Positions 1 to 25,484 of a DNA stretch of 64,000 nucleotides are shown one piece after another (within the stretch, counting starts at the first letter, position 1; every line of letters starts with the position of its first letter). Where the stretch lies: contig NC_081333.1 of assembly GCF_022539665.2 (NCBI RefSeq), positions 5,828,001 to 5,892,000 of the forward strand, given 5' to 3'. The DNA comes from Daphnia carinata (lineage: Eukaryota). Below the pieces are notes generated by a model that saw nothing but the letters and a program-made list of their open reading frames with translations, was not told where the DNA came from and searched no databases. The position numbers and the translations under genes were made by a program.

Positions 1-3000
1 ACCCAATTACTCAACCTATCAACAAACGCAGAGACCCCAGTACAGCAACGCACCGATACATTACAATCAACCAAACTTTCAACCACACAACAATCAACAA
101 GTGTATCATCAAAATCTGGGTTATCCTCAACAATACCCACAGCAACGACAAAACCAGCCGAACACCCCCGACACCCTTGGGAATAAGATTATTATCTGCT
201 ACAAGTGCAATAAAAGAGGACACATTGCACGAGAATGTTGGACAGATATGGCACGTATCAACAACCCGAACCACCGTCTAATGAACTAAACACAATTTTC
301 CTTACCAAACAACCCCCCAACATATAATTTAGAATCAGCGATACCCAAACTAATACGTATACCCATTAGAATTTTTGGAAAAGAAATTAACGCTTTAGTA
401 GACACAGGAGCCGCAGCTAGTTTAGTTTCAGACAGCATATTTTTCAACCTAAAGAAGAGGGAAGAACTTTAAAAAATTAAAAACACTTCCTCGCCAATAT
501 TCAGAACGGTGTCAGGAGAAATACTAAAACCAATGGGAAAATTTGAATTTTCAATTATCATTAACGATAATCACGTTATTAATCATCATTTCTTTATCAT
601 GGAAAACTTAGGTGAGACTTGTATCCTGGGTTTAGACTTCTTATCGAACAACAATGTAAAAATTAATACTAGAAACAGACAGATCAATTACGACCATTTT
701 GGGGTAGAACATAACTTTGGAACAAATATACACCCAATATACAGCCTAACGTTTGACAAAGTAGGCATTCATATCCCACTCATCCCATACCATTCACCAG
801 AAAATAACGATAACAATGACCTTACAGAAGCAGATTACCGCACCCTAGAATCTCTTTCCCAATCAGACAATAATATGAAATCTAAACGAATCAGAAAAAG
901 CCACGAAGGTGAAACAACCAACATCCCTGAAGAGATACTCATTAAAATAGAAATTTTATTGAAAAAACACGAGGCCCTATTCGCAGAAAAAGAATCAGAT
1001 CTGGGCGTAGAAACTGATAAAAACTGTAAACGTCCCATTAACATAGGATACAACGCCCCCATTACTCTAAGATTACGCAGAACTCCAGAAGCATTAAAAC
1101 TTATTGTAAAAACAAAAATTGAAGTAATGCTGAGTAACAATATTATTAGAGAAAATCACAACCCATTTGCAGCAGCCATAGTAATGGTACCAAAAAAAGA
1201 TAAAGAAAAGCGTACGTGTATTGATTATAGGGCACTGAACAAAATAACCGTAAAAGACAAATATCCTTTACCAAGAATTGACGACACCATTGATGCATTG
1301 AACGGATCAGCTTATTTTTAGACATTGGATTTACTCTAGCGGCTACTGGCAAATCGAGATAGATGAAGGCGACAAACACAAAATCGCTTTCATCTGTGAA
1401 TTTGGACAATATGAATTTAATAGAATGCCATTTGGGTTAACAAATGTACCAAGCACTTTTCAACGAGCAATGAATAACATCTTAAAATCAGTATTGTTCA
1501 AATTTGCATTGGTTTATCTGGATGACATCATAGTGTTCAGTAATAATATTGCTGAACATGTGACACATCTAGAAACAGTGTTTAAGCTTCTTAAAGACGC
1601 AGGGCTTAAAAAGAAAGACAAGTGAATTTTTTAAAGAAGAGTTAGATTATTTAGGATACATTGTTTCGAAAAAAGGAATAACACCGAATACGAAAAAGCT
1701 AGAAGCAATCATCAAATACCCGGCTCCCAAAAACGTGAAGGAATTGAGCTCATTTTTAGGTCTGGCTAGCTATTATCGAAAATTCATCCGGGCTTTTGCT
1801 GATAAAGCCCACCCACTGACAGCGCTAACGAGAAAATCAGCCGAGTGGAAATGGGGAGAGGAACAAAAGGACGCTTTTGACTGTATCAAGAACTTTCTCA
1901 TAACTAGACCTATCCTAGGGTATCCAGATTTTTCGCGCGACTTTATCATCCACACGGATGCGTCAGGATACGGAATAGCAGCGGATTCAGCGGAGTCCGA
2001 CGTACAGGAACCCCGTGAATCAGACGGCGCGGAAGTCGTCATAGCGTGTAGCTCTAAACATCTGAACGACCGCGAGGCCAAGTGGTCAACCACAGTGAAA
2101 GAGGCTTACGCAATCATCCATGCGATAGAAGTATTTAGAACATATTTATACGGACGCAGATTTACCGTATTTACAGACCTTAGACCTTTGGAATGGCTAA
2201 TGAGCAAGACAGAACCCGCAGGAAGATTAGCTAGATGGGCACTAAAACTCCAAGAATTTGACATCGCTATTGGGTACCGACCACTGAAGTCACACCAAAA
2301 TGCTGACACCCTAAGTCGTATTCCCATAGTGCCACTAGCAAGCGTAGAAACAAGGGCAACAGGAAAAGAAATTGTCATAAAAGAGCTTGAAAGAAACCGA
2401 AAAGAAAGTGAAAGATTAAAAAACAAACTACACATTGAAAGATTAAGGAAACAAGAACAACTTGATAGAGAAAATGAAAGTAGTTAGACAGGAAGCGAAA
2501 GTTTCGAAAGGAAAAATCATGAAGAGGAAAGCAAAAGTTTTGAAAGGGAAATTAGAAGTGAAAGTAAACGGACTTGGAGAGAAGACAGATGGCTAGAACA
2601 ACAGCAGGCAGATAAATATTGCCAAAAATTAATGATAAAAATACAAGAAGATAGCCAGAAAAGTAACAGATTTAGAAGCAACTTTATAATCAACGAAAAA
2701 GGTTTATTAACAGATAGGCAAGGAAAGCTAGTAGTCCCTATGACGTTAGTCACTGAGATTTTACGAGCAAACCATGATCAAATGTTAGCAGGACATTTAG
2801 GAATAGAAAAAACAATAGCCAGACTTCGAGAACAATACTTCTTCCCACATATGCGACAAAACGTAACAGAATACATCAAAAATTGCCTAAAATGCGCAAG
2901 ACGCAAGGCTGTGGGAGGAAGTAAAGCACCATTGCAACCTATGCCCCCAGCCGAAAGGATGTGGGAAAGACTCGCGATGGATATTGTGGGTCCAGTTCCA

Positions 3001-3105
3001 ATAAGCGCAAAGGGACATAGGTACATTTTGGTCCTATCAGATTACGCCAGTCGTTTCGTTTTTTCCAACGTGACACTGAGTGGACAAAATGCCAAGAAAA
3101 ATTAA
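1..3105 (+). pseudogene. Gypsy gag-pol remnant, integrase core deleted after ~3060
   Basis: ORF pieces 101-289, 509-1321, 1425-1625, 1735-2487 and 2632-3105. Integrase breaks off just after AMDIVGP...LSDYASRF. Confidence 0.92.
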
Positions 3106-5421
3106 GAACACTGGTAAGCAGTAATGATCCATTAGTGCGATCACAAACTGCAGTTGCCAACTGCAGCAAAACAAAAGAACGAGGACAAGCTTTCGAATAT
3201 ACATCTGATTTCACCATTCGACCATTCAACACGAATACCTGTGTTAAAGCCAATACAACAATGCTCGTTCTTCAAGAATGCGCGAACACCAACTCAATCT
3301 GGGGCACATTCGAATACACAGGCCAGCTCATGGCAACAGATAGAACCGGATTACATTCACCTTCATCAGACAGAAAGTGTCTAACACAGAGAGTAGGACG
3401 TGTCAGCCTGGGGCATTGTCACAGCTCCAGTAAAAAATAACACTTTAGCTTTGAATACCGCAACCCACATCAAATAAGGACGCTTTCAGCGGCAGCCATT
3501 ATAGATACACACTCAACAATCATTGGACGGGAAAACACTCCCATCTATACCGTCACTAATGCAAAGGGAGATCAATAACCAATCAGAGAAGAACAACACT
3601 TTAGCCACTCCCCCTGCCAACGCCCACAACAGAAAAATCCACAACAACGACAAGCGCTACGACGACTACAAAGCCCACAATAAAAACAATCTTGGGAACA
3701 ACGATAAAAACCACGGTAAAAATCACGACAACAATTAAGCCAGCTACAAGCACAGCAGCCAACAAACCAACAATAACACATAAAATAACAACAAAACCCA
3801 GTATAACAACAACATCACAAAACCATCCATAACTACAAAACCAATAATCACGTCAACAAGCACTAAACCTACCACTACTACTAGGCCTACGACAACTATT
3901 AAAATAACTTCAACTTCAAGAACCACTACAACCACGAAGCCTACGTCAACAACAACAACGGCTACTACGACAAGCTCCACAACAACAGCAACAACAACAA
4001 CGCACCAACCAAGCACAACTACGCAAAGTACGACGACAGTAAAAGAGAGTCCAATGACCCCACAATCGTCAACACAGACAGCCAGAATGACCCCATTAAC
4101 TACAACAGAAACAACGTCTACAACAGAAGAAAATCAAATTCGGGCCATCGAGAATAACTTTCCAAATTTACCACCCGCTGAGTCCGTTAATGGATCAGAA
4201 AACTAAAGAGTCATTAATTAATGATAATGTGGAAAGCGGTCTACCTAAAAACATCGAAGAATTCAACGACAAGATTAAATACGAAATAAGCAAAATGCAC
4301 GACCAATATAAAATCAGCGTTGAAACAGAACACGAAAACAAACTCGCAAAAGAAATTCGAGATGTTTATTGTCAACTATCGACAATCAAAAGAACACAGG
4401 CCGTTATCTTAGCTCAAACCAACGGAATTTTGGCTTCAGCAGCAATAGGTTTACCGATCTGTACGAGACTACAAGGCTTTGGTCAAGCAATGACACTTCA
4501 ACAATGCGAAGCCAAAAGAATTTTTATATCAACAAATGAATCAAAATGTGGATTTCAACCGTTCTTTACTTACGAAGGAAAGAACTGTACGATCGGAACA
4601 GATGGATGGTAAATTCACCCATTTTCCGATTGTTTTTGGAAAACACCGTTAGTGAATTTGAATGGAAATCCACACACCTGGGAACACAACTCTACAACAG
4701 GAGATTGGATACGCCAGAAACCTAGCATTCACATGCCTAATCTAGACCTCATTACAGAATTTGAAGAACTCCACCTTAATGATTTCGACTTCTCGCTGAA
4801 AAGTCACCCAGCACACGAGACAATGGAGATGGAACAATTAAATATCCTAAATGACCTAGTAGGTAGAATGCAAGAAGGAAATTCCAATACTGTTGGAGAT
4901 ATTGTGATGTCAGAGCAACAAGATAATAAAAAAAAGGCCACATGTTATCATGGTTCGACAAATTGAAAATAATAGGTCTATCAGCGATTGGATTTGTGCT
5001 TTTCCTCGTATGCTTACGGATATTCATCATTTGCAACCCCATCTCGAAGATTAAAGAACATATACGCAGAAAACGGAAGTTTACAAGCAGATACGATGAT
5101 GGCATAGAGGAAGAACACGAACTCGCATCAATGATACCAGGACGAGAAACAAATTACCATTCAGACATAGCAATCGAACAACCGTTCATAAGAGCGGCCG
5201 CCCCAGCACAGCTGACAACAGAAAGACAAGGTCAAATACGTTCTCCACGGCCAAGCGCACCAAATTCATTAATATACCCATTTGTCGAGGAAACTGACAC
5301 ACCCAAACGATGTACAGGAAGACATACCACGTGCACTTACGTCGTCGGGTATGGGATGGTCTGGGAAGACCTCTGTCGTTGCATGTCAGAAGCAGACAGC
5401 GGTAATTCAGCCAAAAAGTGA
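3106..5421 (+). pseudogene. Env-like membrane glycoprotein (lectin-like + mucin-like + conserved core + TM), fragmented
   Basis: Cys-patterned segment at 3110-3460 and Thr-rich tract at ~3600-4130. Core EHENKLAKEIRDVYCQ aligns by eye with the 61365-62618 ORF. TM segment IIGLSAIGFVLFLVCLRIFIIC is followed by a basic cytoplasmic tail. Confidence 0.75.
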
Positions 5422-6779
5422 AAATCCCCAAGGTCACTGAAATTAGAAGTAGCCACAAAACGTAGCCCTTGACAACTTAGTTAATTACATAATAAATTAA
5501 CAGCCCCCAATAAAAAACGCACTTACCAGAATTTAAAAGCTTCAACAATTAAGTTGATTATCATTTCTTGAATCCTTACCATTATTCAATACTCTGAAAC
5601 TTTATAGTAAAAACAAACAAACAAACAAACTCAAAATAACAATTATTGTATTTCCTAACTAACACCTTATCTCCAAAATCAAAAATTGAACAAGCAAACT
5701 AACAAACTCGAATGACCACGTCAAAATCCCAATTAATCAGCCTAACTACAAAATCAATAACAAAACCAAATAATAATACAAAAGAAAATCATCCGTCAGT
5801 TGAATCACAATTGGGAAGAGGAACACCATAATCAAAATAGCTGCGGAGTTGCGATGCACTTGTGTAGGCCGGGCGATAGTCACTCTCTTCTTCAAGACGC
5901 TCTTGCATAAAACGTGAAAAAAGAAGAAAAAGAAAAAGAAGAATTAAAAAAAAAAAAATTTATAAAGCAAAACAACACTTACGAATAATAGTAATCGTTG
6001 TGCGCCGGACGTTTGTACCCGAAATCCAGTGTCACCAAACCCGACACTTTAAAAGCCAGTCGAAACAAACCGAAGAAGAGGCTCCGATCCTCTTCGCGGA
6101 ATCTCCAGAAAAGGCTCGTAGGAGTAGAAAAAATCGCGTCATGAAGCCCACGCAAGGCCATATCAATCTGTTGTCGATAATGAAACACGTACACGTTGAG
6201 GAACACCCCACTGGAAAACGAAGAAACAAACATAACGACGGCACAAGTAGCGTAATCTTCAAAGTAACGAGGAAAACTAACTCACAAAGAAGAATGAGAA
6301 CAGGAGGACCCCTATAAGAAAATGACAAAGACTAAAAAAGGAATAAAGAAAGTTTGAAACGAACAGGATCGCCCTGCGGCAAATCCACATGTCAGCGCGA
6401 CACAAGACGCAGACAACATATTAAATGCACGAAAACCTGTTATTAAATTAAGAACATAGAAACAAGAACTTAAGGGAAAAGAAAAAGCAATACGACAAAC
6501 TTTGAAAGATTTGCAAACATGCGAAACTCTTCCCAGTGTTTCAACGGCATAAATCCAACAAAGTTTCACAATTCAGAGTGTGCATCACATACCATTAACT
6601 CATCTCAAAATTGCAAATAATTTTATCACAAAAGTTTACGACGGTAAAGGTACCATCATCCCCAGGAAGATGGAAAAGGTATACGAATTAATCACCATCA
6701 ACGACACCGAAAGTGAGGATAGTCAACAAGACTGCAGAGAAAAAGAAAGTGCGAAAAGTGCGGATGAAAACAACAATTC

Positions 6780-8015
6780 GTGCAATACATGGGATGGAAT
6801 GGAATAGAAACAGAAAAGAACGACTTTTTCGCAAATAGAGAGAAAGCAAATGACAGCAGTGAATCAAGTGAGGATGAAAACGAGGGTTTAACGGCGTATA
6901 GTGGAATAGCACCCGATTGCGAAAGTGTCTATAGTGTTGATTTTATATTAGGAAATTACAGTAACACTTATCTTCAGTGTGAACCTTCCAAAAAACGGAA
7001 TAAGCCTGACGACCAACAAAGGGGAACACAGGCATGCAAAAATTGTCGGATGAAAACGATAGCATCCCTATCAGTAGCCCGAGCAGAAAAAATCCAACTA
7101 CGAAGACAAGCCATGATAGACTTAGAAAACGGAAAACTTTCATTAACGATGATGGGAGCTCCAATGCAGGTAATAAGAAGGTGCATCCAAAATAAATTCA
7201 AAAGGCAACAAGGTTGGCCGAGACAGAAGATGGCAACATTTCTCAATAAAAGATTCGAAGAGGAACAGACGCTACTCCACACCAGCATACGAAGATGTAG
7301 GTACGACATTACCGATCTTTTACTATCCTTCGGAGGGGACCCATAGATACTCTATCACGGCAAAACAATTGGCCATATCGCAGCGGCCAAAGATAATGAT
7401 CTACTGTTACTCAGGATCCTAAAGCATAACAACTGCGAATTTACAGCTCGCAACTACAACGGAGAAACTCCCTTAATGTTGGCAATCTCATACGAAAACC
7501 AAGAATGTGCAAAGTTAATATGGACACCAACTAACATCAACATTGCAACACCTGACGGCAGAACCGTTTTGCATTATTTAGCCATGTATGGCCTAGAGGA
7601 CCTGACCACCCAAATTTGCGCAAAGAGAATCATCAACATCAACCAACAAGACGACTCAGGCAAAACCGCCTTACACGAAGCAGCCGGATTCAACCGAATC
7701 AACATCATCGAGCTTTTACTGCTACACGGAGCAGACGGAAGGATAAAAAACTCCCATGGACGTGCGGCTGGATCAGAAACATGCAGCTCAAGAGCGCAAA
7801 CCATATTCCAAAAATGGGAACTAAAACATAACAGTAATTCCCTGGCTAAAACTAGAAGAAAAGAACACCAACAATACAGCCGCGAGGAAAATGATCAAGC
7901 CGTAATCAACATAGCCGATATACCAGGCACAAAGAAAAGCAAGAATAAAAGGAGAAAAGAAAGAAGACAATACACCAACAACCTTATTAAAATCACATAC
8001 AACTCTTTTTCTTAA
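6780..8015 (+). pseudogene. Ankyrin-repeat protein ORF inside the Gypsy element (frameshift ~7340)
   Basis: About five ankyrin repeats: QTLLHTSI, GKTIGHIAA, GETPLMLAI, GRTVLHYLA and GKTALHEAA...IIELLLLHGAD. Confidence 0.85.
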
Positions 8016-8110
8016 ATTTTAGGTGAAGGAACAAGTTTTATTTTTCAACCATAGCAACAACTGTAGTCGGTGATGAAAAATGCAAATTGGACGACCAATT
8101 CTTCTTACCG

Positions 8111-8320
8111 AAGAGGGGAAGGAATGTAACAAGCCCAAAGGCTATCCAAAGGAAGCCACACCTCATACATCCCTCAAGCGTTTCACAAGTGAAAGTGAAC
8201 GTATCTCCTCCCACTTCACCTTCATAATTTGTATCCTTTAGTATTATAAATACTGCATGATTGTAACATGTAATTCGGAGTTGTTTTCGGCAACTCACTG
8301 CAAATACACGAGGTATTGGA
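8111..8320 (+). repeat. Polypurine tract and truncated 3' LTR of the Gypsy element
   Basis: AAGAGGGGAAGGAA (8111-8124) is followed directly by TGTAAC at 8125. TATAAA lies near 8245. The sequence runs into satellite at ~8320. Confidence 0.6.
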
Positions 8321-8850
8321 AACTATACAATACAGTGAATTTCAATATGTACATTCAAACAACATCAAATATACGTATAATCAATGCGAATATAGTGTGA
8401 TACAGTGAGTTTCAATATCTACATTCAACCAGCGTCAAATATACGTGTATTCAATGCGAATATAGAGTGATACAGTGAGTGTCAATATCTACATTCAAAC
8501 AGCATCAAATAAACGTGTATTCAATGTGAATATAGTGTGATACAGTGAGTTTCAATATCAACATTCAAACAACATCAAATATACGTGTATTCAATGTGAA
8601 TATAGTGTGATACAGTGAGTTTTAATATCTACATTCAAACAGCATCAAATATACGTGTATTCAATGTGAATATAGTGTGATACAGTGAGTTTCAATATCT
8701 ACATTCAAACAGCAACAAATATACGTGTATTCAATGTGAATATAGTGTTATACAATCAGTTTCAATATCTACATTCAAACAGAATCAAATATACGTGTAT
8801 TCAATGTGAATATAGTGTTATAGGATCAGTTTTAATAGTTACATTCAAAC
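8321..8850 (+). repeat. 70-bp tandem satellite (~7.5 units)
   Basis: Unit TACAGTGAGTTTCAATATCTACATTCAAACAGCATCAAATATACGTGTATTCAATGTGAATATAGTGTGA recurs at 8331, 8401, 8471, 8541, 8611, 8681 and 8751. Confidence 0.97.
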
Positions 8851-8990
8851 TGTTGAAATATCATTATGAGCATGTTATGGTGTTTGTCGCCTTACGGCTC
8901 TCTCTTCTCTTTCAAACTCCGTATGTAAAGGTACTCTGTCCTAATACAGTTTGAATGTTATAATCTGATTATTCTTTCCATTTGGATATC
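8851..8990 (+). repeat. Copia 5' LTR (internally deleted; 3' end, PBS and gag start missing)
   Basis: Matches 13575-13782 except for a gap of ~70 bp. Joins directly to gag codons DGSNYREW at 8991. Confidence 0.9.
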
Positions 8991-11900
8991 GACGGATCCA
9001 ATTACCGTGAATGGCATTTTGAATTGTATCTGGTGTTAAAACTGTTGGATCTTTCAATGATTGTGTCAGGATATTAAGTGCGACCAGAAGAGGTATTTCT
9101 TTTTTTACCTTCGCAATTGAAACTATTCCTGCGAGTAACACAATTTCGATTGCCTCTGCATAGTTTAAATGTCTTTACATTTCAGCTGTCACTGACAACC
9201 ACACAGTTTAGAAGTACAATTTTGATTTATTTACACCATTTCAGTTCTACGATTCTCAACTGTCACTGTCAATCACACAGTTCAAAAGTTACACAGCTAA
9301 CCCAAAGTGGCAAATGAAATAACAGTAACTACACCTAATTTTTTGTTTATATTGTGTTAGTAGACCTATGATGGTGACCGAATCACAAACGAAGGAGTTA
9401 TCAATAGCTGGATCAAGAAAGACATTACAGCACAAAACTGCATATTCAGTGCGTTAACAAGAGAAATGAAACAAAACTTGTACACTCCTGGTTTGACTGC
9501 AGCCGATATGTGGAAAAAGTTGAATAATCAATATGAGATCAACACTGTGGAACAGATACATCTCATTTGGCAAAATTTTTATGATTTCAATTACACACAA
9601 GGTATTTAAAATTTAAAGTTATTGATACACATCTTGCACTTCATATCAACCTCTTCAACAGGTGACGACATGCGAACACATCTACAAAAATCAATCAACA
9701 TGTGTAGATAGACTGAGGGAAAGAAACCTAGTCATCGAAGAAATTCAATTCGTTAGCAAAGCCCTAGCTACCTTACCTGAGAGATTTAGAGTAGTGAGAT
9801 CAGTCTGGTCAAGTGTTCCAGTACACGAATGCACACTAGAAAACCTACTTCAACGTTTATTGTCTGAAGAAAACGTGATGGAGTCTTACTCAAAACAAGA
9901 AACAAGTAATGACGGATCATTTCGAGCCCTTAATGGAAGCAGAGGAGGTTATGGTCGTGGTAATTACCGAGGAGGACATTTTGGAATAAGAGGAGGATTC
10001 ATAAAAAAAAATGTGGAAGACATAATCACCAGTCTCTACCGAATTATAATGACACTCGGCCAAGATGCAACTACTGCAAGATCCGGGGCCATGAAGAGGA
10101 AGAGTGTTTTAAGAAAAAGAGAGCAGAAAATGTGAAAAGCAATGAAGAATGGGGCATGGCATCACCATCTTCATTTGGTCCCAGGAGTAGTATCTTTGCC
10201 TTCTTTGCCGATTCGGGAGCAACCAGACACATGTCAGATCAAAAAAGTTTTTTCTCAACTATTACACCAACTGAAGAAGGAAAATGGTCTGTGTCAGGTA
10301 AACGACATCCTAAACACACGATGTCTAAGTGGATGATTTTTTTTATTTTTTCTTTCTCTCTTTCACAAGGCATTGGCGATACAAAACTAAACGTACTGGG
10401 GAAAGGAGACATCAACGTAACCATAGAATTGGCCTAAACAATAACGCATTCAACTGTGAAAGACGCACTATACGTCCCAGAACTAGGAACAAACCTTTTT
10501 TCAATAGGCGTAGCTGCCAATAACGGAATAGGAGCACAATTTCGTGGAAAAAAGGTACAATCGAACACAACAAACAGAAATCAGCAATAGGCCCCAACTT
10601 AACAGAAAATCAAGCAATTCCTATTGGGTTATGCAGGATCTGCGAACTAGCCAAATTCCATCGCCAGCCAAGAAATCCAGCAAAGCAGACGGTTATGACA
10701 ACCCAGATTGGCAACTTGATACACACGGACGTCTGGACGCCATCTAATACAACAAGCATCGGGGAAACAAGATATTCCGTACTATTCAAGGATAATTTCA
10801 CCGGACACCTAACTGTCTACTTCATGAAGCTAAAATCTGAAGTGCCTGCCCTTTTTCGTCTTTACGAAGCAATGGTAAGGAATCAAACTGAAATCAAAAT
10901 CCGCGTACTGCGTAGTGATTGCGGTGGAGAATACTTTGGAAACGAATTAAGAAAATATCTTGCGGAAAAAGAGATTAGACACGAAAGCAGCGCCCCGTAC
11001 AACCAATCTCAAAATGGTGTTTCAGAAAGGACCAACCGTACATTACTCAATTCAGCCCGAAGCATTTTAATCTCAAGTGGACTTCAGCCAGAACTATGGG
11101 CAGAAGCAATATCGTATTCTACCTATATTCACAATCGTGTTCTATCTCGTACTAGAAAAATGACACGTCATGAAGCATGAACTAAAAAGAAACCAAACCT
11201 TTCTAACTTGCGGATTTTCGGCTCCAAAACCTTTGTACGTGTTCCAAACAGCAGGAAACTTGATGCAAAAAGCCAAGAAGGAGTCTTTCTAGGACGAAGC
11301 CATACACAAAATGCTGCCCGCATCCTTATCCTTGCCACCAGAAAAGTCATCACAAGCAATGATTTCAAGGTAGATGAACAAATAATCTGCAGCAACCTGA
11401 ATGAAAAATCTCTCTTCTTCAATAATGGAACAGTCTTGGATCAACGAAATCTTTCTTTTCATGCCCCCTCCCAACACAGCTGAAACAAATGATATTCAAG
11501 AAGCAGAAAACAATGAAAGCGAAACTCCACAAGCAGAACCGATGGAAGTCAACAAAGACCACAACAACATTCAGCAAGTTGAATAAAATCAACAAGAAGC
11601 TACGATTCAGAATAGCATCGAGGCTGAAATAGAGATTCCTTCCATTGAACCACAAGAGCGCCGCAGGTCAGCTCGTGAACCAGCCTACACTGAACGCTAA
11701 AATGCCTACAGACAAACATTAGCCAAACAAGGTCCATATGTATTCTTTCTGTCAACCATTTCCTTTTTCTCTCATCTTATTTTTTTTTTCTTTATTTTTT
11801 TCCCCTAATATTCACGCTAGCTAGAGACAAAACAAAAAAAAGAGGAGGATAATCACATAAAAAAAACATTTTTTTGAAAAATATTTACTTATTATTATTT

Positions 11901-13531
11901 TTTTTTCTCTTTCTTAGCATTTTCCTTTGCTTTGCCCGCTCAAATGACAATTTCAAATACAGTCCAGCAACAGCAATCCCAAGAACCGACAAGCTACTCA
12001 GAAGCAATTACATGCACTGAATCCCACAATTGGATCCCTGCTATCTTCAACGAATAGGACTCTCTAATTCAAAACAAAACCTGGGAGCTCTGCGAACTAC
12101 CTGAGGGGAGACATGCCATCAAAGGGAAATGGGTCCTAAAATACAAGCCAGGATACAAGGAAACACCAGCAAGATTCAAAGCACGCTATGTGGCATGTGG
12201 GTTCTCTCAAATTTAAGGAATAGATTACCTAAAGACCTATGCACCAGTCGTTAAATACCACTCGCTCCGGACAATACTAGCCATAGCAGCCGCAAAAGAC
12301 TTGGATATGATGCAGTTAGATATCAAAACGGCGTTCTTAAATGGTGACTTAGATGAAGAAATTTACATGATCCAACCTGAAGGCTTTGTTATCCAAGGAA
12401 GAGAAAAGGACGTATGCCGTTTAAAAAAAAAGCCTGTACGGACTCAGACAAGCCTCACACGCTGGGTGCAAAAAATTTAATGAATTCCTGTTATTTTTCA
12501 GATCATCAGAAGCAAAGCGGATGCATGTGTCTATTTTCGCCACAACCAACCAAGTGAAAAAAACCAAGAGTTTACGGTCTTCATTTGTTACGTAGACGAC
12601 GGAATCATACTAGCATTTCTAGCAATATTCTCACAGTTCTCACAGACATACTGGATCACCTTGGAAAAAAATGTGAGATAAGATCAATGCCAGCAAACCG
12701 GTTTGTTGGAATAGATATAACCAGAGATCGCACTAACCGAACAATTCATTTATCTCAATCTGAGTACATCAAACAAATACTTAAAAAATTTTAGATGTCA
12801 AACTGTAATCCTCTCACAATTCCAGCGGACCCTTGTTGCAAACTTACACCCGGAATGTGTCCACGAAACGAAGAGGAAACAGCATCAATGTCCAATATAC
12901 CCTACAGAGAGTTAGTTGGATCCCTTACACATCTCTCGCATATACCACACGCCCTGACATCACACAAGCTCTTGGACAAGTTGCCCAATACGTTCAAAAG
13001 CCTGGAAAAGAACACTGGAAAGCAGCCAAAAGAATTCTAGCGTATCTCAAGTAAACAGTGAACCTTGGAATCCGATTTGGTGGGGGAAGTAATCTACTAG
13101 TCGGATACTGTGATTCCGACAACGCAGATAAGTTAGAGAATCGTCGGTCAACCTCGGGCTCGATATTTATTTTCCTAGGAGGACCTATTTCATGCTTCAG
13201 TCGACGTCAAACGTGTGTACCTTTATCTACAACTTAAGCAGAATTCATGGCAGCGGCAGAAACTACAAAAGAAGCCATATGGCTCCAACGACTGTTAATG
13301 GAGCTGGGGTGGCTAGAAAGAACCACAGAACTAAGATGCGACAATCAAGGAGCAATCGCGCTAATAAAAAATCCCGTATTCCATCAACGCACAAAACACA
13401 TGGATCTGAGATTCTTCTTCATCAGGGATGCAGAAGAACAAAAGAAAATCAACATCTCCTATATTAATACCAATGAGCAATTAGCAGATATCTTTACCAA
13501 AGCGCTAGCTTATCCTAGGTTCAGTAGTTGA
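8991..13531 (+). pseudogene. Copia gag-pol with four apparent GT-AG introns (9093-9363, 9602-9661, 10298-10369, 11732-11917)
   Basis: Removing the segments gives in-frame RPEE|TYDGDRITNEGVINSWIKKD, FNYTQ|GDDMRTHL, KWSVS|GIGDTKLNVLGKGDI and TLAKQ|AFSF...QEPTSYSEAI. Confidence 0.8.
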
Positions 13532-13574
13532 ACATTGTGGAAATTCCACAATAGATGCTCATAATGAGAGGAGG

Positions 13575-13843
13575 TGTTGAAGTATCATTATAAGCATGTT
13601 ACGGAAACCTAGTTAGGTTGCTGAACCATCTTGTATTGTTTATCCCTAACCTTCGGTTGTTCTCTTCATGGGTAGATATCGCCTTACGGCTCTCTCTACT
13701 CTTTCAAACTCCGTATGTAAAGGTACTCTGTCCTAACACAGTTTGAATGTTATAATCTGATTATTCTTTCCATTTGGATATCAAATAGAGATTTAGTGTA
13801 ACTTATACAAACGGTACTGAATAAACTATCACTTATTCCAACA
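13575..13843 (+). repeat. Copia 3' LTR (269 bp)
   Basis: TGTTGA start after the PPT, AATAAA near 13820, CCAACA end, followed by the TSD. Confidence 0.93.
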
Positions 13844-13848
13844 CAAAC

Positions 13849-15119
13849 AGTATCAAATATACATATATTCAATGTGAATCAAGTGTGATACTGTGAGTTT
13901 GAATATGTACATTCAAAGAGAATCAAATATACGTGTATTCAATGTGAATATAGTGTGATACAGTGAGTTTCAATATCTACATTCAAACAGCATCAAATAT
14001 ACGTGTATTCAATGTGAATATAGTGTAATACAGTGTGGTTCAATATCTAGATTCAAAGAGCATCAAATATATGTGTATTCAATGTGAATATAGTGTGATA
14101 CAATGAGTTTCAATATCTACTTTCTAATACCATCAAATATACGTGTATTCAACGCAAATATAGTGTTATTGAATCAGTTTTAATACCTACTTTCAAACAG
14201 TATCAAATATACGTGGTTTCAGTGTGAATATAGTGTGATACAGTGAGTTTCAATATCTCCATTCAAACAGCATAAAACATACGGGTATCCATTGTAAATA
14301 TAGTGTAATAGAATGAGTTTCATGATCTACATTCAAACAATATCAAATATACGTGAATTTAATGTGAATATAGTGTGATACATTGAGTTTCAATATCTAC
14401 ATTCAAACAGCATCAAATGTACGTGAATTCAAAGTAAATATTGTGTTTTAGAATCAGTTTCATGAGCTTCATTGAAATAGTATCAAATATACGTGTATTC
14501 ACTGTGAATATAGTTTGATACAGTGAGTATCAATATCTACATTCAAACAGCATCAAATATACGAGTATTCAATGGGAATATAGTGTTTTATAGAATCATT
14601 TTCATGATCTAGATTCAAAATGTATGGAATATACGTGTATTCAATGTGAATATAGTGTGATACAGTGAGTTTAAATATCTAGATTCAAACAGCATAAAAC
14701 ATACGTGTATCCCATGTAAATATAGTGTTATAGAATCAGTTTCATGATCTGCATTGAAGCAGTATCAAATATACGTGTATTAAATATGAATATAGTGTGA
14801 AACAGTGAGTTTCAATAGCTACATTCTAATAGCATCAAATATACGTGTATTCAACGTGAATATAGGGCTTTGGAATCAGTTTTAATACCTACATTCAAAC
14901 AGTATCAAATATACCGGTTTTCAATGTGAATATAGTGTGATACAGTGAGTTTCAATATCTAAATTCAAACAGCATCAAATATACGTGTATTCAATGTGAA
15001 TATAGTGTTACAGAGTCAGTTTCATGAACTACATTTAAACGGTATCAAATATCCGTGTATTCAATGTGAATATAGTGAGATACAGTGAGTTTCAATATCT
15101 ACATACAAACCGCATCAAA
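13849..15119 (+). repeat. 70-bp tandem satellite (~18 units)
   Basis: Same unit as 8321-8850, resuming in register after the Copia TSD. Confidence 0.97.
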
Positions 15120-15143
15120 TTAGGTTAGGTTAGGTTAGGTTAG
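15120..15143 (+). repeat. (TTAGG)4+ telomere-type repeat
   Basis: TTAGGTTAGGTTAGGTTAGGTTAG. TTAGG is the common arthropod telomeric motif. Confidence 0.85.
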
Positions 15144-17318: not shown

Positions 17319-17510
17319 GTAGCTTATTTGTAATTGATATATTTTATTGACTGTGAAACAGCAGGAACGGAATGTAATATTCCGTTTTATTTTTCCATTT
17401 CTTCACTACAGAAAATATTTGACTTAATTTTATATGATGAGTTATACCAAGGAGTATCATTCAAGCAGTTTTTTTTAATAACGATAAATATTCTGTTCTA
17501 AAAGGATCAT

Positions 17511-17885
17511 TGTTACAGACTCTCGTGCAAGAGTTGTAACAGAGAGAATGAGGGATGAGTGGTGATAAGGATGAAATGAAGATGACGATGATATAAAACA
17601 AAGTACTGCTTTATTTCAGGGCTGAGGGAAACAAAAAACGTCGCGCTTGATGCGAAATACGGGGACACAAACTGAGTGCAACTTAAATTTGGATGGGGAC
17701 AAAACGAGACAAGAAACGAGAAAACAAAAGTGACTGTCTGGGTCGACAAAGAATACGATACTACCCTTTTCCCATGGAAAGGGGTAAAAAGACAACAACA
17801 AAACCAAAAAAAAAAAGGGCACCCGATACTAATCAGGCCCGTGCCCCCTACAGCCCTGCCCGCGAGGGCAGCACCGTAGGTGACA
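17511..17885 (-). repeat. BEL 3' LTR
   Basis: TGTTAC...GTGACA. Matches 25485-25868 apart from a ~9-bp indel near 17680. Confidence 0.96.
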
Positions 17886-17980
17886 GCGGGACCTGTTGCA
17901 TCTGTTACAACATGTGCAAACAAACAAACATAAAACATACTTCTAAACGTACAACACACCACCGAATATAACCATCAATT

Positions 17981-18673
17981 TTAGTGGCTGGGAAGATCTT
18001 TGTAAGTCTTCTTTGTGCCACACAGGATCTGGTGATGATCTCGGGTGTGGCACAACCCGCACTGACGAGGATGGGGACAATCGGGGAGCCTCACGTGCCC
18101 CGCTACGGCCGTCGGGACGAAACACCCGAAACACCTCCGTTGCCCGAAGAGAAGCTCCAGTTTCTCTTGATTGGTGAGGAGCATAAACTCCTCACATTCT
18201 GCGATCTTCTTTTTGCACGACGTCGCTCCCGAGACGTGGCACTTAAGAAAACACATGATGTTGGGAGTGTGTACCGGAACTATATACGTAGGGCGTTCCG
18301 GGGTGACGAGCAGCGTGGGCGGAAGAGTTTCGGTCGCCTTTTCACGTTCTTTACGCAGGAGGGACCCGACGTACCCGCTTAACAGGGCTTCTCGCTCAGT
18401 TTTGAAGTGCACGTGCACGTTTACTAGGTCCTTCTGACGTTCGTCGTGTTCCTTGTCAAGGCGAACAATCGCACTTTGATACAAGTACACTTTCTCCACT
18501 GCTTCCTTTTTTGCTATTAAAATTCCGTCAATGAGTTCCGTGAGGTTGGCCACGCACTCTTGTTCGCGTTCCCTGCTTACTTTCAGTTTTTCCTTCACGG
18601 ATGCGGATGATGGAGGCGGATATTCTGCCATGGTAATCACGTTGGGTGTGAGTTCACTGGTGGTAAGTTTCAC
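17981..18673 (-). CDS. Additional BEL ORF: coiled-coil plus Cys/His zinc-knuckle cluster
   Basis: Open 230-codon frame (first ATG gives MAEYPP...). Charged helical N-terminal half and C-terminal CFGC...H...C...CGLC...HHQILC. Confidence 0.7.
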   Translation of the reverse strand: MKLTTSELTPNVITMAEYPPPSSASVKEKLKVSREREQECVANLTELIDGILIAKKEAVEKVYLYQSAIVRLDKEHDERQKDLVNVHVHFKTEREALLSGYVGSLLRKEREKATETLPPTLLVTPERPTYIVPVHTPNIMCFLKCHVSGATSCKKKIAECEEFMLLTNQEKLELLFGQRRCFGCFVPTAVAGHVRLPDCPHPRQCGLCHTRDHHQILCGTKKTYKDLPSH

Positions 18674-19062
18674 TATGACGAAGTTAGGTCGATTAAAGGC
18701 TGTCTGCTAGCAGATTTGGCTAAATGGTTTCCAAATTTCCCTTTGGTGTTGCTAAACAGCAAGCGACCTAACTTTGCCCTTTGCCCTATATTTGAACTTA
18801 AATATAGGTGGCGTTGAGCTTCGTGAATCCCCCACCAGGTTTAGAGTTGCGATTGTCTTACGTTGTTTACAGTTGAGTTTACCATTGTGATTTTACTTGT
18901 TAAATTTACATTTTTGTTTTTACAAGGGAAGCTACTAATTATAGATAGTATTTACATTTTACAACACCTTTTGCCTGTACAATTTTGGTTGTATAAGGGG
19001 AGCTACTAATTGTAGCTCCATTACAATTCAGTATTTACATTTTACCATACTGAAGTTGAATT

Positions 19063-22000
19063 TTACGCTGTTAAAGGTTCCATTTTTTCTTCCTTTGCGT
19101 AAACTTCTTGATCTTTGGCTGCAACCATGATACATAATTTGGCCACCGGCCGAATACATGGTTTTGGGTGGTTGCTGAGCTTGACTTTTACGACTCGAAC
19201 CACATTATCCGTTACACTGGGGATAACTTCCAACACTTTGCCCATCGGCCACTGCCCACGCAAAGTACTTGGTTCAACTGCTAACACTAAATCTCCCACG
19301 GTGACGTTAGGCCTATTTTCTTGCCACTTTCTTCTCTCAGTTAAGTGGGGAACGTATTCACGTAGCCATCTGTTCCAAAAGTGCTGAAGGATGGCTTGAC
19401 TTTGCTGGAACTGCTTGTTGGTTACGTTCAGGTCTTCCACGTCGGCCAATTGCAGGGGCACGTATGGACGGGCCCCACCGTGTAGGAAGTGATTGGGCGT
19501 TAACGGATCCGGGTCTCCTGGATCCATACTCAGATGAGTTAACGGCCGGGCGTTTAACAAGGCTGCCACTTCAGCGATTACGGTTCGTAGCACTTGGTCC
19601 GTAACTAGGCAATTACCAATGCTGGTTTTCATTGCCCGTTTACAAGACTGTACGATTCTTTCCCAAACGCCACCAAAGTGAGGTCCATGGGGAGGAGAAA
19701 AGTGCCACTCAATTTGTTGGCAAGCCATTGACGTCTGGAGCTCTTCGTGTTTGCTGATGAGTTCTTCCAACGCTTGCCGTAACTCCTGCTCGGCGGCAAC
19801 AAAGTTCGTCCCATTGTCGCTGTAAACGACTTTAGGTTTACCACGTAGACTAACAAAACGGGAGAAGCAGAGTAAGAACTCCTCCATACTAAGCCCGTTG
19901 GCCACTTCCAGGTGAACCGCTCGTGTGGTGAAGCACGTAAATAGGCTGATCCAACGTTTTTCGTGTCTTCTTCCCCTACCACCAACTCTTACGGTCAAGG
20001 GTCCGAAATAATCGATCCCTGTGTACGTGAACGCCGCCAGATGTGGTGTTAAACGATGGACTGGTAGTGAAGCCATCAAAGGAGGGCTAGGTTTTGCCGA
20101 CGTGCGCTTGCAGGGCCAGCAGTTGTTGAGGACAGATTTTACCACTTTACGTCCAGAGAGTATCCAGTAGCGAGAGCGGAGGTCCGTCAACAATCTCTCC
20201 GTCTTGACGTGCAGGTTTCTAACGTGGTGATCCCAGATTATCCTTTTTGTTAAAAGTTGAGATGCTGGTAGAAGTATGGGGTGCTTGGCTGCATAGTCGA
20301 TCGGCGCGTGAAGTATACGTCCGCCAATTCGCGTTTGTCCAGCTTCATCCAAGAAGGGCTGGAAGGTGCGAAGTTTTGATCTGAGTGGTAATTCCAGATT
20401 CTTGCGAAGGGCGTAGACTTCCTCAGCAAAGGCCAATTCTTGCGCCCGTACGATGCATTTTTTCAGCGACGTTACCATTTCTTCTACTGTCAGCTCCCCG
20501 ACCATGGGTTTTTCATCACGAATTTTTGCCCTAGCGTTGTTGGTAAATCTTGTGGTCCAGGCCAGCACTCGTTGAATTTTCACCAAGCTGGAAAAACGTG
20601 CAACGCAATTGTCGATGGCATGGTTCTCATCTTCTGTTTTTACTGCCAAGACGCGAATCACGTTTACGTCTCGTTCCTCAGGCTCCGAGATTTCTTCCCA
20701 AGAGTACCACTCTGAGGGGTCTAGGATCAGGAACGAAGGTCCTCGATGAAAATAGGCCAATTCGTCGACGTCTTTTGGGTCGATACCCCTGCTACAAAGG
20801 TCTGCAGGATTTGAAACTCCGGCGACATGACGCCATTGTCGACGACCCGTGTTTCGGAGTATTTTTCCGATGCGGTTGTTGACGAAGACTTCAAATCGGC
20901 ACGTCTTCGAGTGGATCCACCGCAGCACTGTTTGCGAGTCTGTGTGGAAGGTTACTTGCCTCAAATCAATTTCTAGTTCACGACAAATCGTGAGAGCAAT
21001 GTTGAGGCCTTCTACTGCCGCCTGTAACTCCAAACGGGGAATTGTGAGACCTTTTACCGGTGTGACGTGCGTTTTCGACATGACGAATGACACGTTGACG
21101 GAATGGTCTTCAAATACAGTGCGGAAGTAGGCTACTGCTCCGAATCCTTTGGAGCTTGCATCCGTGAAGACGTGGAGGCACTGTTGAGTCCATCGTCCTC
21201 GTTTGAAACGGAAGCACCTCGGTACTGAGAGCGACTCCAAATTTTCCAGATGATCGTACCAGCAATAGAAACGTTGACTCAATGCTTCCGGTACGACGTC
21301 ATCCCATCCGATCCGTTCTTCGTTGGTCCAAATGTCTTGGAGCAAGGACTTCATTACGAAGATAACTGGTGCAACCAGCCCCAACGGGTCGTAGACGCTA
21401 GAGATGATGCTGAGGAAGGCTCGCTTCGTGAGTGTCACGTTGTGCGGCGACTTCCGAATCTTGAACGTCAGCATATCTCGTTCGCTGTCCCACATTACTC
21501 CCAGAGTTCTTTCGACGGGAAGTTTTTCCAAATCCAGATCCAGAGTTGGTGAGGCGAGGCCAAACTCTCGTAGCGCAGCTATCACCATTCGCGATGACGA
21601 CGTCCATTTGGTCAAATTGAAGCCCCCTAACTGAAGAAGGGACTTCATTTCGCGGGACCGTTTGATGACCTCGTCTTCGGAGTCAAATGAGTCGAGATAA
21701 TTGTCGACGTAGAAATTACGTCGAACGCTATCGGCTACGTCTGGAAACTGGCTGCTGTAGTCGTCGGCCGTCCTGTTGAGGGCGAAGATACAGCTCGTCG
21801 GGGATGATATAGCTCCAAATACGTGTACCGTCATCTGGTACGTTAACGGAACTGAATTACTGCCAGGCGTCCGGTAGAGAAATCGGAAGGCTGCCTGGTC
21901 TGCTTCCGGGACTTTCACTTGGTGGAACATTTTCTCAATGTCCGCTCCGACTGGCACAAGGTTACGGCGGAAGCGGATGAGTACACCAAGCAAGCTAACG

Positions 22001-25000: not shown

Positions 25001-25296
25001 TTCTTTAATCTGATGGCCCCCATCTTGTGGTCTTCCACAGCCTTTCTGAGTTGTGTCGTTAACTTCGTGTGGGCCGCCTTTCTCTTCCCACGTTTCTTCT
25101 TGAGATCGTTTTCGGGAAGTAATGGCCGTTCACTCTTCTGCCGTTCAGGTTTCGATACGTCTACCATTGGGTTCGGGCCGTGTTCCCAAATGTGGCCAAT
25201 TTCCATATTTTCGGCTTTGGGTGCGGCTTCACTCATGACGTAGAAACGTTTTCTTAGGCTGATAGAGTCACACGTTAACGGATGTCGATGATTCAC
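19063..25296 (-). CDS. BEL/Pao Gag-Pol polyprotein (likely ATG at 25236)
   Basis: Gag PFDGNPKNY, triple zinc knuckle, protease FLDTGS, RT (ADIEKMF, FYVDN), Pao RNase H (VFTDAS, IPRLEL), integrase (GIDYFGP, YSDNGTNF, GGVWER) and a C-terminal PLTPNHFL/FWNRW domain. Confidence 0.97.
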   Translation of the reverse strand: MNHRHPLTCDSISLRKRFYVMSEAAPKAENMEIGHIWEHGPNPMVDVSKPERQKSERPLLPENDLKKKRGKRKAAHTKLTTQLRKAVEDHKMGAIRLKKLQVTTWRDELIRIYEEVKAIHNQYAESISGLTDQQRQACDKWEVDFETDHAEIVKFASRYATSSNQSVSSIGTSASDITCSTTLSEKRRTSVKPTSLPQQSTQEELEAEARMLKLELKLETARAQMEANTTSITETLNKALRSMSEQLSKLIDSSRVTSKDIAANNTLVREAHHTLDGLDQKIDAVKVDLSAKIEDLRTEVDEMKVQPRTIQDQRLPERSPVLQARQEVPALSPIRTMEDAVRHRRRLVAADASPRDPRRGAMATMTSRCDPTDHEEDEHSERSHPHSQVNRPHSSCCSRLQPPNFKIQPFDGNPKNYARFKAKFQALYEEYEDSPVLLFMLEELLAEEVRNEVGECLTDGTMYSVLWERLDAVYGRTEIMDQTYLDDLLQVPPLKSLDAASLKTFANRLHGAVATLSKSKYAHELYSRTTLMALEAKLTPYLKDKWNEKRKKNGVELNVLDLDDWVTLKSMSKQHGKNVFESLPTSTSKGVKFDERKPVKRFSFPHTSTIGHVTTMEGSKVTASTSSATMPLRSRSTSGKMPAEKTERWKCFVCNGRSHHLSTCNVFMSLTPTKRAEKVFKSGRCLLCLTGKHERKECPRDVSCTIADCTGNRHHTLLHGSEFVPLRRLADPIAPSAPPSTAFLGTLTHLETVKRRVRFKIVPVRVGVGKTWVDTFGFLDTGSDTTLIRSDLVRKLGLVGPSKRINVVSYDGAMSNVTASVVNFTLTSRDGSSQFEVKHAYAVDNLKVTPNSPIDPRQLESWKHLRGIDVSTVQEEDVTVLIGIDVAEAHDHVASIKPPAGTTGPIAFKTPFGWCLGGQTGPPQDGRPFNAHLAIEERPEDLNEMVKKFWQLEASEVEIEPPVLSEDDLRGKRILESSVKRIGNQYQVGLMWKTDEVNLPNNRAAALKRLYALERRFHRDEEFAHKYDAVVKEYIGLKHARLLTTQEAQTETNKTWYLPHHGVVSPSSSSTKVRVVFDGAAEFGGTSINQNLLRGPNLLVSLLGVLIRFRRNLVPVGADIEKMFHQVKVPEADQAAFRFLYRTPGSNSVPLTYQMTVHVFGAISSPTSCIFALNRTADDYSSQFPDVADSVRRNFYVDNYLDSFDSEDEVIKRSREMKSLLQLGGFNLTKWTSSSRMVIAALREFGLASPTLDLDLEKLPVERTLGVMWDSERDMLTFKIRKSPHNVTLTKRAFLSIISSVYDPLGLVAPVIFVMKSLLQDIWTNEERIGWDDVVPEALSQRFYCWYDHLENLESLSVPRCFRFKRGRWTQQCLHVFTDASSKGFGAVAYFRTVFEDHSVNVSFVMSKTHVTPVKGLTIPRLELQAAVEGLNIALTICRELEIDLRQVTFHTDSQTVLRWIHSKTCRFEVFVNNRIGKILRNTGRRQWRHVAGVSNPADLCSRGIDPKDVDELAYFHRGPSFLILDPSEWYSWEEISEPEERDVNVIRVLAVKTEDENHAIDNCVARFSSLVKIQRVLAWTTRFTNNARAKIRDEKPMVGELTVEEMVTSLKKCIVRAQELAFAEEVYALRKNLELPLRSKLRTFQPFLDEAGQTRIGGRILHAPIDYAAKHPILLPASQLLTKRIIWDHHVRNLHVKTERLLTDLRSRYWILSGRKVVKSVLNNCWPCKRTSAKPSPPLMASLPVHRLTPHLAAFTYTGIDYFGPLTVRVGGRGRRHEKRWISLFTCFTTRAVHLEVANGLSMEEFLLCFSRFVSLRGKPKVVYSDNGTNFVAAEQELRQALEELISKHEELQTSMACQQIEWHFSPPHGPHFGGVWERIVQSCKRAMKTSIGNCLVTDQVLRTVIAEVAALLNARPLTHLSMDPGDPDPLTPNHFLHGGARPYVPLQLADVEDLNVTNKQFQQSQAILQHFWNRWLREYVPHLTERRKWQENRPNVTVGDLVLAVEPSTLRGQWPMGKVLEVIPSVTDNVVRVVKVKLSNHPKPCIRPVAKLCIMVAAKDQEVYAKEEKMEPLTA

Positions 25297-25464
25297 GTAG
25301 ATACACCGATCTTCTTGTCAGATGGCAAACGCGTGGTGGACAGGTGGGTGCCTTCAGGCTGGCGTGGACGTCTGCCAAAGGTTTTCCAGGGAGAATACCC
25401 AACAATTTTACAATCAAGCGAGGGTTTTTACTAACGAGGATGGAATTTGCACGTGTTCGTCAAA

Positions 25465-25482: not shown

Positions 25483-25484
25483 TT

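What the first reader, a model, noticed from the sequence alone, without database searches (positions are those of the whole stretch)
8991..11990. Copia retrotransposon whose gag-pol is split by four spliceosomal introns
Seen: four GT...AG segments with pyrimidine-rich 3' ends at 9093-9363 (271 nt), 9602-9661 (60), 10298-10369 (72) and 11732-11917 (186), each preceded by exonic AG. Removing them joins Copia motifs in frame (RPEE|TYDG..WIKKD, YTQ|GDDM, WSVS|GIG, AKQ|AF..EPTSY). Three of the four would break the ORF if retained. The second Copia in this window has the homologous WTVNGIG and integrase-RT linker uninterrupted. The element keeps both LTRs, a PPT and a perfect TSD, so it looks like a real insertion rather than a domesticated gene. 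Established: reverse transcription of spliced RNA purges introns. Known Copia splicing makes a short gag RNA rather than assembling the ORF. Inference: this family packages unspliced RNA as genome but needs full splicing to make protein, a splicing-gated lifecycle. The fourth donor (GTCCAT) is weak.
Basis: partly seen in the sequence, partly recalled or inferred. Interest (0 to 1): 0.88.

Follow-up and report, generated by a model that had tools for sequence, protein, structure and literature searches.

The report
Intron-riddled Copia retrotransposons of water fleas
This is a dead copy from a lineage of jumping genes, with relatives in Daphnia, whose single protein-coding gene is cut by several intron-like pieces at the same positions across distant families, so they likely must splice their RNA to make any protein yet likely copy the unspliced RNA back into the genome, a layout I found no description of for this class of element.

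Summary
The four GT..AG segments lie exactly where stated; a spliced aligner built from relatives recovers all four. They are not post-insertion indels. Three of the four sites carry introns in families only 50-60% identical in protein, and about ten intron sites occur across the lineage. Exons on both sides of frame-breaking introns are under strong purifying selection (dN/dS 0.01-0.10), while intron sequences have decayed to shuffle level. Near-identical copies (93-99% protein identity) differ by clean presence or absence of single introns, which points to splicing in vivo. Eight of 13 intron-bearing related loci have no stop or frameshift once introns are skipped; some keep LTRs 97-98% alike. 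The window copy itself is dead: 10 stops, 8 frameshifts, a truncated 5' LTR without PBS, and the stump of a fifth intron. The fourth intron is seen only here. No RNA reads could be obtained, so the life cycle (unspliced RNA packaged, spliced RNA translated) is inferred. Closest precedents: plant Ogre (one intron gating Pol) and Penelope-like elements. Ten literature searches found no multi-intron Copia; Repbase and Dfam could not be checked.

The parts
8846..8850 (+). Left target-site duplication CAAAC, inside a 70-bp satellite array
8851..8990 (+). 5' LTR remnant (internal deletion; 3' end, PBS and gag start lost)
   Evidence: alignment; 2 mismatches in 104 nt to the 3' LTR, 3 in the first 30 nt
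8991..9092 (+). Exon 1 remnant (gag N-terminus; holds a stop)
9093..9363 (+). Intron 1, 271 nt, phase 0; same site in L001, L002, L003, L004, L009, L013, L015
   Evidence: donor rank 4 of 177 GT, acceptor weak at rank 61 of 308 AG
9364..9601 (+). Exon 2 (gag, 79 codons; 78-79 codons in five relatives)
9602..9661 (+). Intron 2, 60 nt, phase 1; same site in L001, L002, L003, L004, L011, L015; exactly absent from near-identical copies in three families
9662..10297 (+). Exon 3 (gag C-terminal half, zinc knuckle, protease N-terminal part); frameshifted in this copy
10298..10369 (+). Intron 3, 72 nt, phase 1, open in frame; same site in L003, L005, P0097/P0098
   Evidence: donor rank 1 of 177, acceptor rank 1 of 308
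10370..10554 (+). Exon 4 (protease C-terminal part)
10555..10571 (+). Stump of a fifth intron (donor kept; the rest and about 62 codons of the pre-integrase region deleted); same site as introns in L003 and L005
   Evidence: donor rank 3 of 177
10572..11731 (+). Integrase core, SH3-like domain and linker (decayed)
11732..11917 (+). Intron 4, 186 nt, phase 1, in the integrase-RT linker; found in no relative
   Evidence: donor rank 19 of 177, acceptor rank 2 of 308; 18 related proteins span the site without a break
11918..13531 (+). RT and RNase H (decayed, no introns)
13566..13574 (+). Polypurine tract
13575..13843 (+). 3' LTR, 269 bp, TG...CA
13844..13848 (+). Right target-site duplication CAAAC; the satellite continues

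Best explanation
The window holds a dead copy of a Ty1/Copia lineage, with named relatives in Daphnia, whose gag-pol is interrupted by GT-AG segments at shared positions that are very likely spliceosomal introns; the element likely translates spliced RNA and likely packages and reverse-transcribes unspliced or partly spliced RNA. Shown: the segments, their shared positions, their splice-site features, purifying selection on the exons, paired LTRs and a TSD. Inferred: (1) unspliced RNA cannot make Gag or Pol in the core clade, because intron 1 stops the frame after about 50 codons; (2) LTR pairs are made identical at each reverse transcription, so copies with 96-98% identical LTRs and ancient introns came from an intron-retaining template; (3) Gag and Pol therefore act on an RNA other than their own message, giving two RNA pools; (4) now and then a partly spliced RNA is copied and one intron is lost cleanly; (5) new short introns arise at new sites, probably by the host's own intron-gain process. 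Intron 1 is long (270-465 nt) and was never seen lost in the core clade, so it may mark or help package the genomic RNA; this last step is a guess.
For: Shared sites: intron 1 in 7 related loci, intron 2 in 6, intron 3 in 2, the fifth site in 2. Among 23 curated introns of relatives, 22 have G at -1 and 20 have A at +3, cues the aligner did not use; G at -1 together with A at +3 occurs in 20 of 23 against 4.4% of 1380 background GT. Pyrimidines before the AG are 0.74 against 0.48. 21 of 23 break the ORF if kept. 8 of 13 intron-bearing loci have 0 stops and 0 frameshifts once introns are skipped. L001 vs L003: dN/dS 0.01-0.10 in all five exons with dS 1.3-2.4, while introns 1 and 2 align at about shuffle level. 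A blind DNA alignment of L003 to L001 gives exactly two gaps, of 61 and 72 nt, the lengths of the two introns. Exact presence/absence of intron 2: P0130 vs P0129 97.6%, P0142 vs P0140 97.8%, P0059 vs P0139 95.1% identical. P0080 is 98.9% identical to the L001 ORF up to a post-integrase site where it runs into intron-like sequence and L001 reads on. P0139 starts in the tail of intron 1 yet lacks intron 2. LTR pairs: L015 97%, L013 98% over 100 nt; window 2 mismatches in 104 nt plus a TSD. None of the 16 best exon-2 hits among cluster representatives is joined to exon 1. Short introns are 55-74 nt; D. pulex median introns are 63 and 77 bp (PMC5427498, passage).
Against: There is no direct RNA evidence for any junction. 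It is unknown whether the intron-lacking contigs come from DNA or RNA. The 23 training introns were picked by eye from 66 aligner calls in non-window sequences, so the splice-site counts lean toward the claim. With no dinucleotide preference only 10 of 27 gaps slid to GT..AG within 3 nt (chance 1.9% per gap). Intron 4 has a weak donor and no counterpart in relatives. The window's intron-1 acceptor scores poorly. Intron 1 shows no sequence or structure conserved across distant families (folding z -0.5 to -2.1). It is short in L009 and L013, and absent from some more distant relatives that end at the intron-2 site (P0312), which weakens the packaging-signal idea. Independent insertions of one family with different TSDs were not shown.
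Confidence: 0.82

Rival explanations
1. The segments are post-insertion indels or small foreign insertions in a dead copy that happen to begin with GT and end with AG.
For: The window copy is heavily decayed. Intron 4 is unique to it and has a weak donor.
Against: The same site and phase recur in families 50-60% identical. Intact relatives carry them. Near-identical copies show exact loss. This reading stays open only for segment 4, about 15%.
Confidence: 0.02
2. The introns are real, but the intron-bearing copies are resident master or domesticated loci. They spread by DNA duplication or are vertically inherited, and their reverse-transcribed progeny are intronless.
For: Intronless relatives exist (L008, L012, L041, P0111, P0011), and copies lacking single introns exist. 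Copy numbers could not be counted.
Against: The window copy has a 5-bp TSD in a satellite and LTRs about 96-98% alike, yet carries ancient introns. L015 and L013 also have near-identical LTRs. The intronless elements are separate lineages on the tree, not progeny of the intron-bearing families. No unmodelled ORF joining exons 1 and 2 was found for the core clade.
Confidence: 0.08
3. The segments are not removed by the spliceosome but are bypassed by recoding (frameshift, readthrough, reinitiation), or they separate independent ORFs.
For: There are no RNA data. Some segments are open in frame (window intron 3; intron 2 in L002 and L004). G at +5 occurs in only 4 of 23 donors.
Against: Lengths of 55-465 nt in all three frames, with stops, fall inside folded domains. 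Boundaries follow the splice consensus, and losses are exact at GT..AG.
Confidence: 0.03
4. Same introns, different purpose: selective retention of the protease-region introns mainly sets the Gag:Pol ratio (Gag-only message when intron 3 or the next one is kept), and retention in the genome is a by-product of slow splicing.
For: Many relatives' ORFs stop within intron 3 just after gag (38 of 156 clade proteins end in two bins at that site). Known Copia elements use splicing to set the Gag excess (PMC5580714, PMC3735527; passages). Donors are weak at +5.
Against: L001, L002 and P0060 lack these introns and still look intact. It does not explain introns 1 and 2 inside gag or the introns in integrase. 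It is compatible with the best explanation as an added role.
Confidence: 0.05

Closest known systems
Ogre (plant Ty3/Gypsy, Tat lineage)
   Same: An intron inside the polyprotein gene must be spliced for full translation and is kept in genomic copies; only a subset of transcripts is spliced (PMC6317226, passage).
   Different: [quoted passage not shown] Here a Copia has up to five introns per element and about ten sites in the lineage, the first about 50 codons into gag, with gain and exact loss between families.
Drosophila copia, barley BARE1, Arabidopsis EVD and related Ty1/Copia
   Same: Copia elements that use the host spliceosome; BARE keeps separate RNA pools for translation and for packaging (PMC3735527, Discussion part 1 read; PMC5580714, passages).
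   Different: In those elements the unspliced RNA is the intact gag-pol message and splicing makes a Gag-only RNA by removing coding sequence. Here the removed pieces are non-coding and the unspliced RNA has no long ORF.
Bianca (plant Copia lineage)
   Same: A Copia whose two ORFs are separated by a region of about 172 bp (PMC6317226, passage).
   Different: One gap; the passage I read reports no splicing test for Bianca. Relationship to this lineage was not tested.
Penelope-like elements
   Same: Retroelements that retain introns after retrotransposition, some conserved (PMC8557442, passages).
   Different: No LTR/integrase/particle cycle of the Copia type; that paper calls intron retention highly unusual among retroelements.
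D. pulex Copia families (Rho et al. 2010; CoDpu clade of Piednoel et al. 2013)
   Same: Relatives of the window element are annotated as D. pulex and D. magna proteins, so the lineage probably overlaps these families.
   Different: Neither main text contains 'intron' or 'splic'. The Rho supplement could not be read.

Membership tests
Ty1/Copia LTR retrotransposon | Domain order gag, protease, integrase, RT, RNase H | tested here: met
   Pfam Retrotran_gag_2, Pol_BBD and rve in order; RT and RNase H follow by tblastn to P0060, 57-65% identity
Ty1/Copia LTR retrotransposon | TG...CA LTRs, PPT, 5-bp TSD | tested here: met
   3' LTR 13575-13843, 5' remnant, PPT, CAAAC on both sides
Ty1/Copia LTR retrotransposon | Primer-binding site after the 5' LTR | tested here: inconclusive
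   Deleted in the window copy; one shared PBS-like motif follows the LTR end in all 11 related loci examined
U2-type spliceosomal introns | GT..AG ends, donor consensus, pyrimidine tract | tested here: met
   +5 G is rare (4 of 23) and no host baseline was available; the set was curated by eye
U2-type spliceosomal introns | Position conserved while sequence drifts, flanking exons under selection | tested here: met
   (introns 1-3); intron 4 has no homologue
U2-type spliceosomal introns | Removed from RNA in vivo | tested here: inconclusive
   Indirect only: exact absence in near-identical copies; no reads could be laid
CoDpu clade (Piednoel et al. 2013) | Groups with the reference D. pulex elements in an RT/RH tree | not testable with these tools
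Ogre-type elements | Gypsy domain order and Tat lineage | tested here: not met
   Copia order; works partly like Ogre, is not a member
copia/BARE1/EVD splicing strategy | Unspliced RNA is an intact gag-pol ORF; the intron removes coding sequence | tested here: not met
   21 of 23 introns in relatives break the ORF when kept
Domesticated retrotransposon gene | Single locus that has lost LTRs and mobility domains | tested here: not met
   LTRs, PBS, TSD and all Pol domains are kept across many families

The most novel reading that the evidence does not exclude
A whole clade of animal Copia retrotransposons has become an intron-rich split gene: no viral protein can be made from the RNA that is packaged, introns are gained and lost through the replication cycle, and the long first intron marks the genomic RNA. 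It would be a natural, high-copy system in which intron loss through reverse transcription of spliced RNA can be watched copy by copy.
Probability: 0.6. Interest if true: 0.88.

Novelty: new variant of a known kind. Interest (0 to 1): 0.8.

Why it matters
LTR retrotransposons are expected to shed introns at every copying round. A lineage that keeps up to five ORF-breaking introns must separate message from genome completely, must let a stop-riddled RNA escape splicing and decay, and must supply its proteins to an RNA other than their own message. Copies that differ by single exact intron losses give a direct test of the long-debated model of intron loss through reverse transcription (bias by position, by splicing order, by intron). 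The varied sites allow a study of intron gain in a host genus known for it (PMC5427498, passage). In practice, such elements look decayed to ORF-based TE finders and look like host genes to gene predictors: D. pulex and D. magna gene models already join these exons.

Tried and rejected
No genome is held for the window. For sequencing runs none was listed, so no reads were laid; this is no evidence either way. A search with window exon 2 alone found 0 of 12 candidates. Viral contigs and genome contigs gave no relatives. The second Copia in the window is a poor control: a different lineage with gag missing. 43 of 66 aligner intron calls in non-window sequences were dropped as GC-rich, repeat-derived or in low-homology stretches; one of them (L009) was re-placed by hand 16 nt upstream. 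Alternative boundaries for intron 4 were considered and rejected because the residues after 11917 match relatives. An intron from a donor-like site in the LTR to the LTR/PBS junction was tested by acceptor score and not supported (scores -3.8 to 9.5, highest in an intronless element). No conserved motif or strong fold was found in intron 1. Literature: ten searches listed no paper on multi-intron Copia. PMC13148404, PMC5718144 and PMC11835246 (passages) had nothing on the question. The Ogre splicing paper PMC2596294 is not held. Scan look-ups by words, sequence and place found no matching earlier finding. No structure or complex prediction was run; it did not bear on the question.
Full report
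OBSERVATION. The element runs from 8851 to 13843 inside a 70-bp satellite, with CAAAC duplicated on both sides. The four segments are at the stated coordinates, begin with GT, end with AG and are AT-rich. I wrote a spliced aligner whose only splice cue is the GT and AG dinucleotides and whose protein profile comes from related proteins. The copy is dead: 10 stops and 8 frameshifts remain outside the introns. The 5' LTR is internally deleted and fused to gag, with the PBS lost. A fifth donor at 10555 is followed by a deletion of about 62 codons. The LTRs differ at 2 of 104 and 3 of 30 aligned bases.

RELATIVES. No genome and no sequencing run was available for the window, so the test rests on relatives. 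The integrase piece found 42 proteins among 387 candidates, the best 74% identical. A metagenome scan gave 53 loci. An exon-2 profile gave 25 longer proteins and 651 cluster representatives at E up to 0.001, of which 150 were listed. Named hits are D. pulex and D. magna gene models. The window's own species is not known.

SHARED INTRON SITES. In the numbering of the intronless protein P0111, intron 1 (residue 49, phase 0) is present in the window and in L001, L002, L003, L004, L013, L015 and L009. Intron 2 (129, phase 1) is in L001, L002, L003, L004, L011 and L015. Intron 3 (343, phase 1) is in L003 and L005, and the fifth site (406) is in L003 and L005. Further sites lie at 277, 372, 595, 614 and about 745. 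Intron 4 (818) is in the window only; 18 related proteins span that site unbroken. I kept 23 of the 66 calls in non-window sequences and dropped 43 as GC-rich, repetitive or in poor alignment, so the following counts lean toward the claim. Of the 23, 22 have G at -1 and 20 have A at +3; both together occur in 20 of 23 against 4.4% of background GT; pyrimidines before the AG are 0.74 against 0.48; G at +5 occurs in only 4. 21 of 23 break the ORF if kept. Scored with these matrices, the window donors rank 4, 5, 1 and 19 of 177 GT and the acceptors 61, 7, 1 and 2 of 308 AG. As a control, wrong dinucleotides lowered the total score by about 300-340. With no preference the gaps stayed at the same places, and 10 of 27 slid to GT..AG within 3 nt against 1.9% by chance.

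FUNCTION OF THE SPLICED FRAME. Eight of the 13 intron-bearing loci (L001, L002, L003, L009, L011, L013, L015, L016) have no stop and no frameshift once introns are skipped; L004, L005, L014, L019 and L034 have 1-4 frameshifts. L001 and L003 show dN/dS of 0.01, 0.04, 0.10, 0.08 and 0.06 in five exons at dS 1.3-2.4, while their introns 1 and 2 align at 55% and 53% against 49% and 47% for shuffles. Closer pairs give weaker ratios of 0.25-0.40. Selection thus keeps every exon, including those on either side of frame-breaking introns.

EXACT LOSS. Three families hold proteins that differ only by the in-frame translation of intron 2: P0130 vs P0129 (163 of 167 identical), P0142 vs P0140 (180 of 184) and P0059 vs P0139 (388 of 408). 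P0229, a D. magna gene model, was left out of this count because its join may be a prediction. The L001 ORF is 98.9% identical to P0080 until a site after integrase, where P0080 and most of its cluster run into intron-like sequence and stop while L001 reads on. A blind DNA alignment of L003 to L001 opens only two gaps, 61 and 72 nt, equal to the introns of L003. Exact removal at a shared ancestral site is what a spliced RNA, or a cDNA copy of one, would give (inference). I cannot tell whether these contigs are DNA or RNA. P0139 begins in the tail of intron 1 but lacks intron 2, so partly spliced forms exist. In one search only two of 25 hits join exons 1 and 2, and both are gene models. None of the 16 best representatives does so; 40 of all 150 do, all more distant.

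PHYLOGENY. An integrase tree of 52 rows places the window copy as sister to P0001 (100/100) inside a clade of 18 rows (100/100). Every member with gag or protease sequence in that clade carries introns; L007 covers only residues 436 onward and shows none. Intronless elements (P0010, L008, P0111, P0011, L012, L041) branch outside a wider group of 28 rows that has weak support (88/73). This suggests gain of introns from an intronless ancestor, but I ran no clade test, the root is a midpoint, and labels on database proteins were inferred from ORF ends or family and not all checked.

HOW IT LIKELY WORKS. It is established that LTRs are identical at birth (PMC5427498, passage). The window copy, L015 (97%) and L013 (98% over 100 nt) have near-identical LTRs and introns at sites far older than the insertions. 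So their templates kept introns (inference). That RNA cannot encode Gag, because intron 1 stops the frame early in all core-clade loci examined. Protein must come from spliced RNA and act on unspliced RNA. How the unspliced pool is set aside is open. The options are a separate uncapped transcript as in BARE (PMC3735527, Discussion part 1), capture of pre-mRNA by Gag in the nucleus (recalled for Drosophila copia, not confirmed by any search), weak donors, or a signal in intron 1. The last is suggested by its length and persistence but not by any conserved sequence or fold, and some more distant relatives lack it. Short introns of 55-74 nt match host median lengths of 63 and 77 bp, in a genus known for intron gain (PMC5427498, passages).

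COMPARISON WITH WHAT IS KNOWN. Drosophila copia, BARE1 and EVD splice to make Gag-only RNA from an intact gag-pol (PMC5580714, passages; PMC3735527, passages and Discussion part 1). Ogre needs one intron removed for the whole polyprotein, and Bianca has a 172-bp gap between two ORFs (PMC6317226, two passages). Penelope-like elements retain introns, which is called highly unusual among retroelements (PMC8557442, passages). The surveys of D. pulex LTR elements and crustacean Copia contain no word starting with 'intron' or 'splic' in their main texts (PMC2996953, PMC3587641); the supplement of the first was unreadable. Ten full-text searches (listings only unless named above) showed no paper on multi-intron Copia. 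An earlier scan note on introns inside fungal LTRs (e1-7164629) concerns a different layout; the related idea of an LTR intron was not supported here.

VERDICT. The introns are very likely real at family level (about 0.93 for introns 1-3, about 0.85 for intron 4). The two-pool life cycle is the best explanation (0.82) but lacks RNA proof. New variant of a known kind; interest 0.8.

Noticed in passing
window 1-8330 (+): Gypsy-type element (RT-RNase H, H2C2 integrase) with a ricin-type beta-trefoil lectin match at 3021-3440 and an ankyrin-repeat ORF at 7347-8015 just before a PPT and an LTR-like start.
   Followed up: no
window 17510-25868 (-): Intact BEL/Pao element: 2084-aa ORF and LTR blocks 100% identical. 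It shows the assembly is not error-ridden, so the Copia lesions are real decay.
   Followed up: partly
window 28915-33883 (+): RT plus tyrosine-recombinase matches below Pfam cut-offs; probably a DIRS-type element.
   Followed up: no
window 43943-46300 (-): Second Copia, decayed, gag missing, RT interrupted by a Gypsy element at about 39.2-43.9 kb. On the tree it groups with L009 and L013, which carry a short intron 1.
   Followed up: partly
window 8330-8850, 13844-15120, 60451-61255: 70-bp satellite arrays; the Copia sits inside one.
   Followed up: partly
window 13719-13728 and LTRs of L001, L003, L004, L041: A donor-like AG|GTA site lies inside the LTR; no matching acceptor was supported at the LTR/PBS junction.
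   Followed up: partly
L015:93-97: The five bases before the 5' LTR of L015 are CAAAC, the same as the window TSD; chance or target preference.
   Followed up: no
L002:3547-3886 and L004:433-786: Intron 1 of these two sister families is rich in repeated 6-bp palindromes (17 and 16 against about 7 in shuffles); other families show no excess.
   Followed up: partly
window 35642-36357: 183-bp tandem repeat whose units contain a strong donor-like motif; may be a repeated exon-intron unit of a host gene.
   Followed up: no
window 61365-62633 (-): 422-aa ORF without a Pfam match.
   Followed up: no
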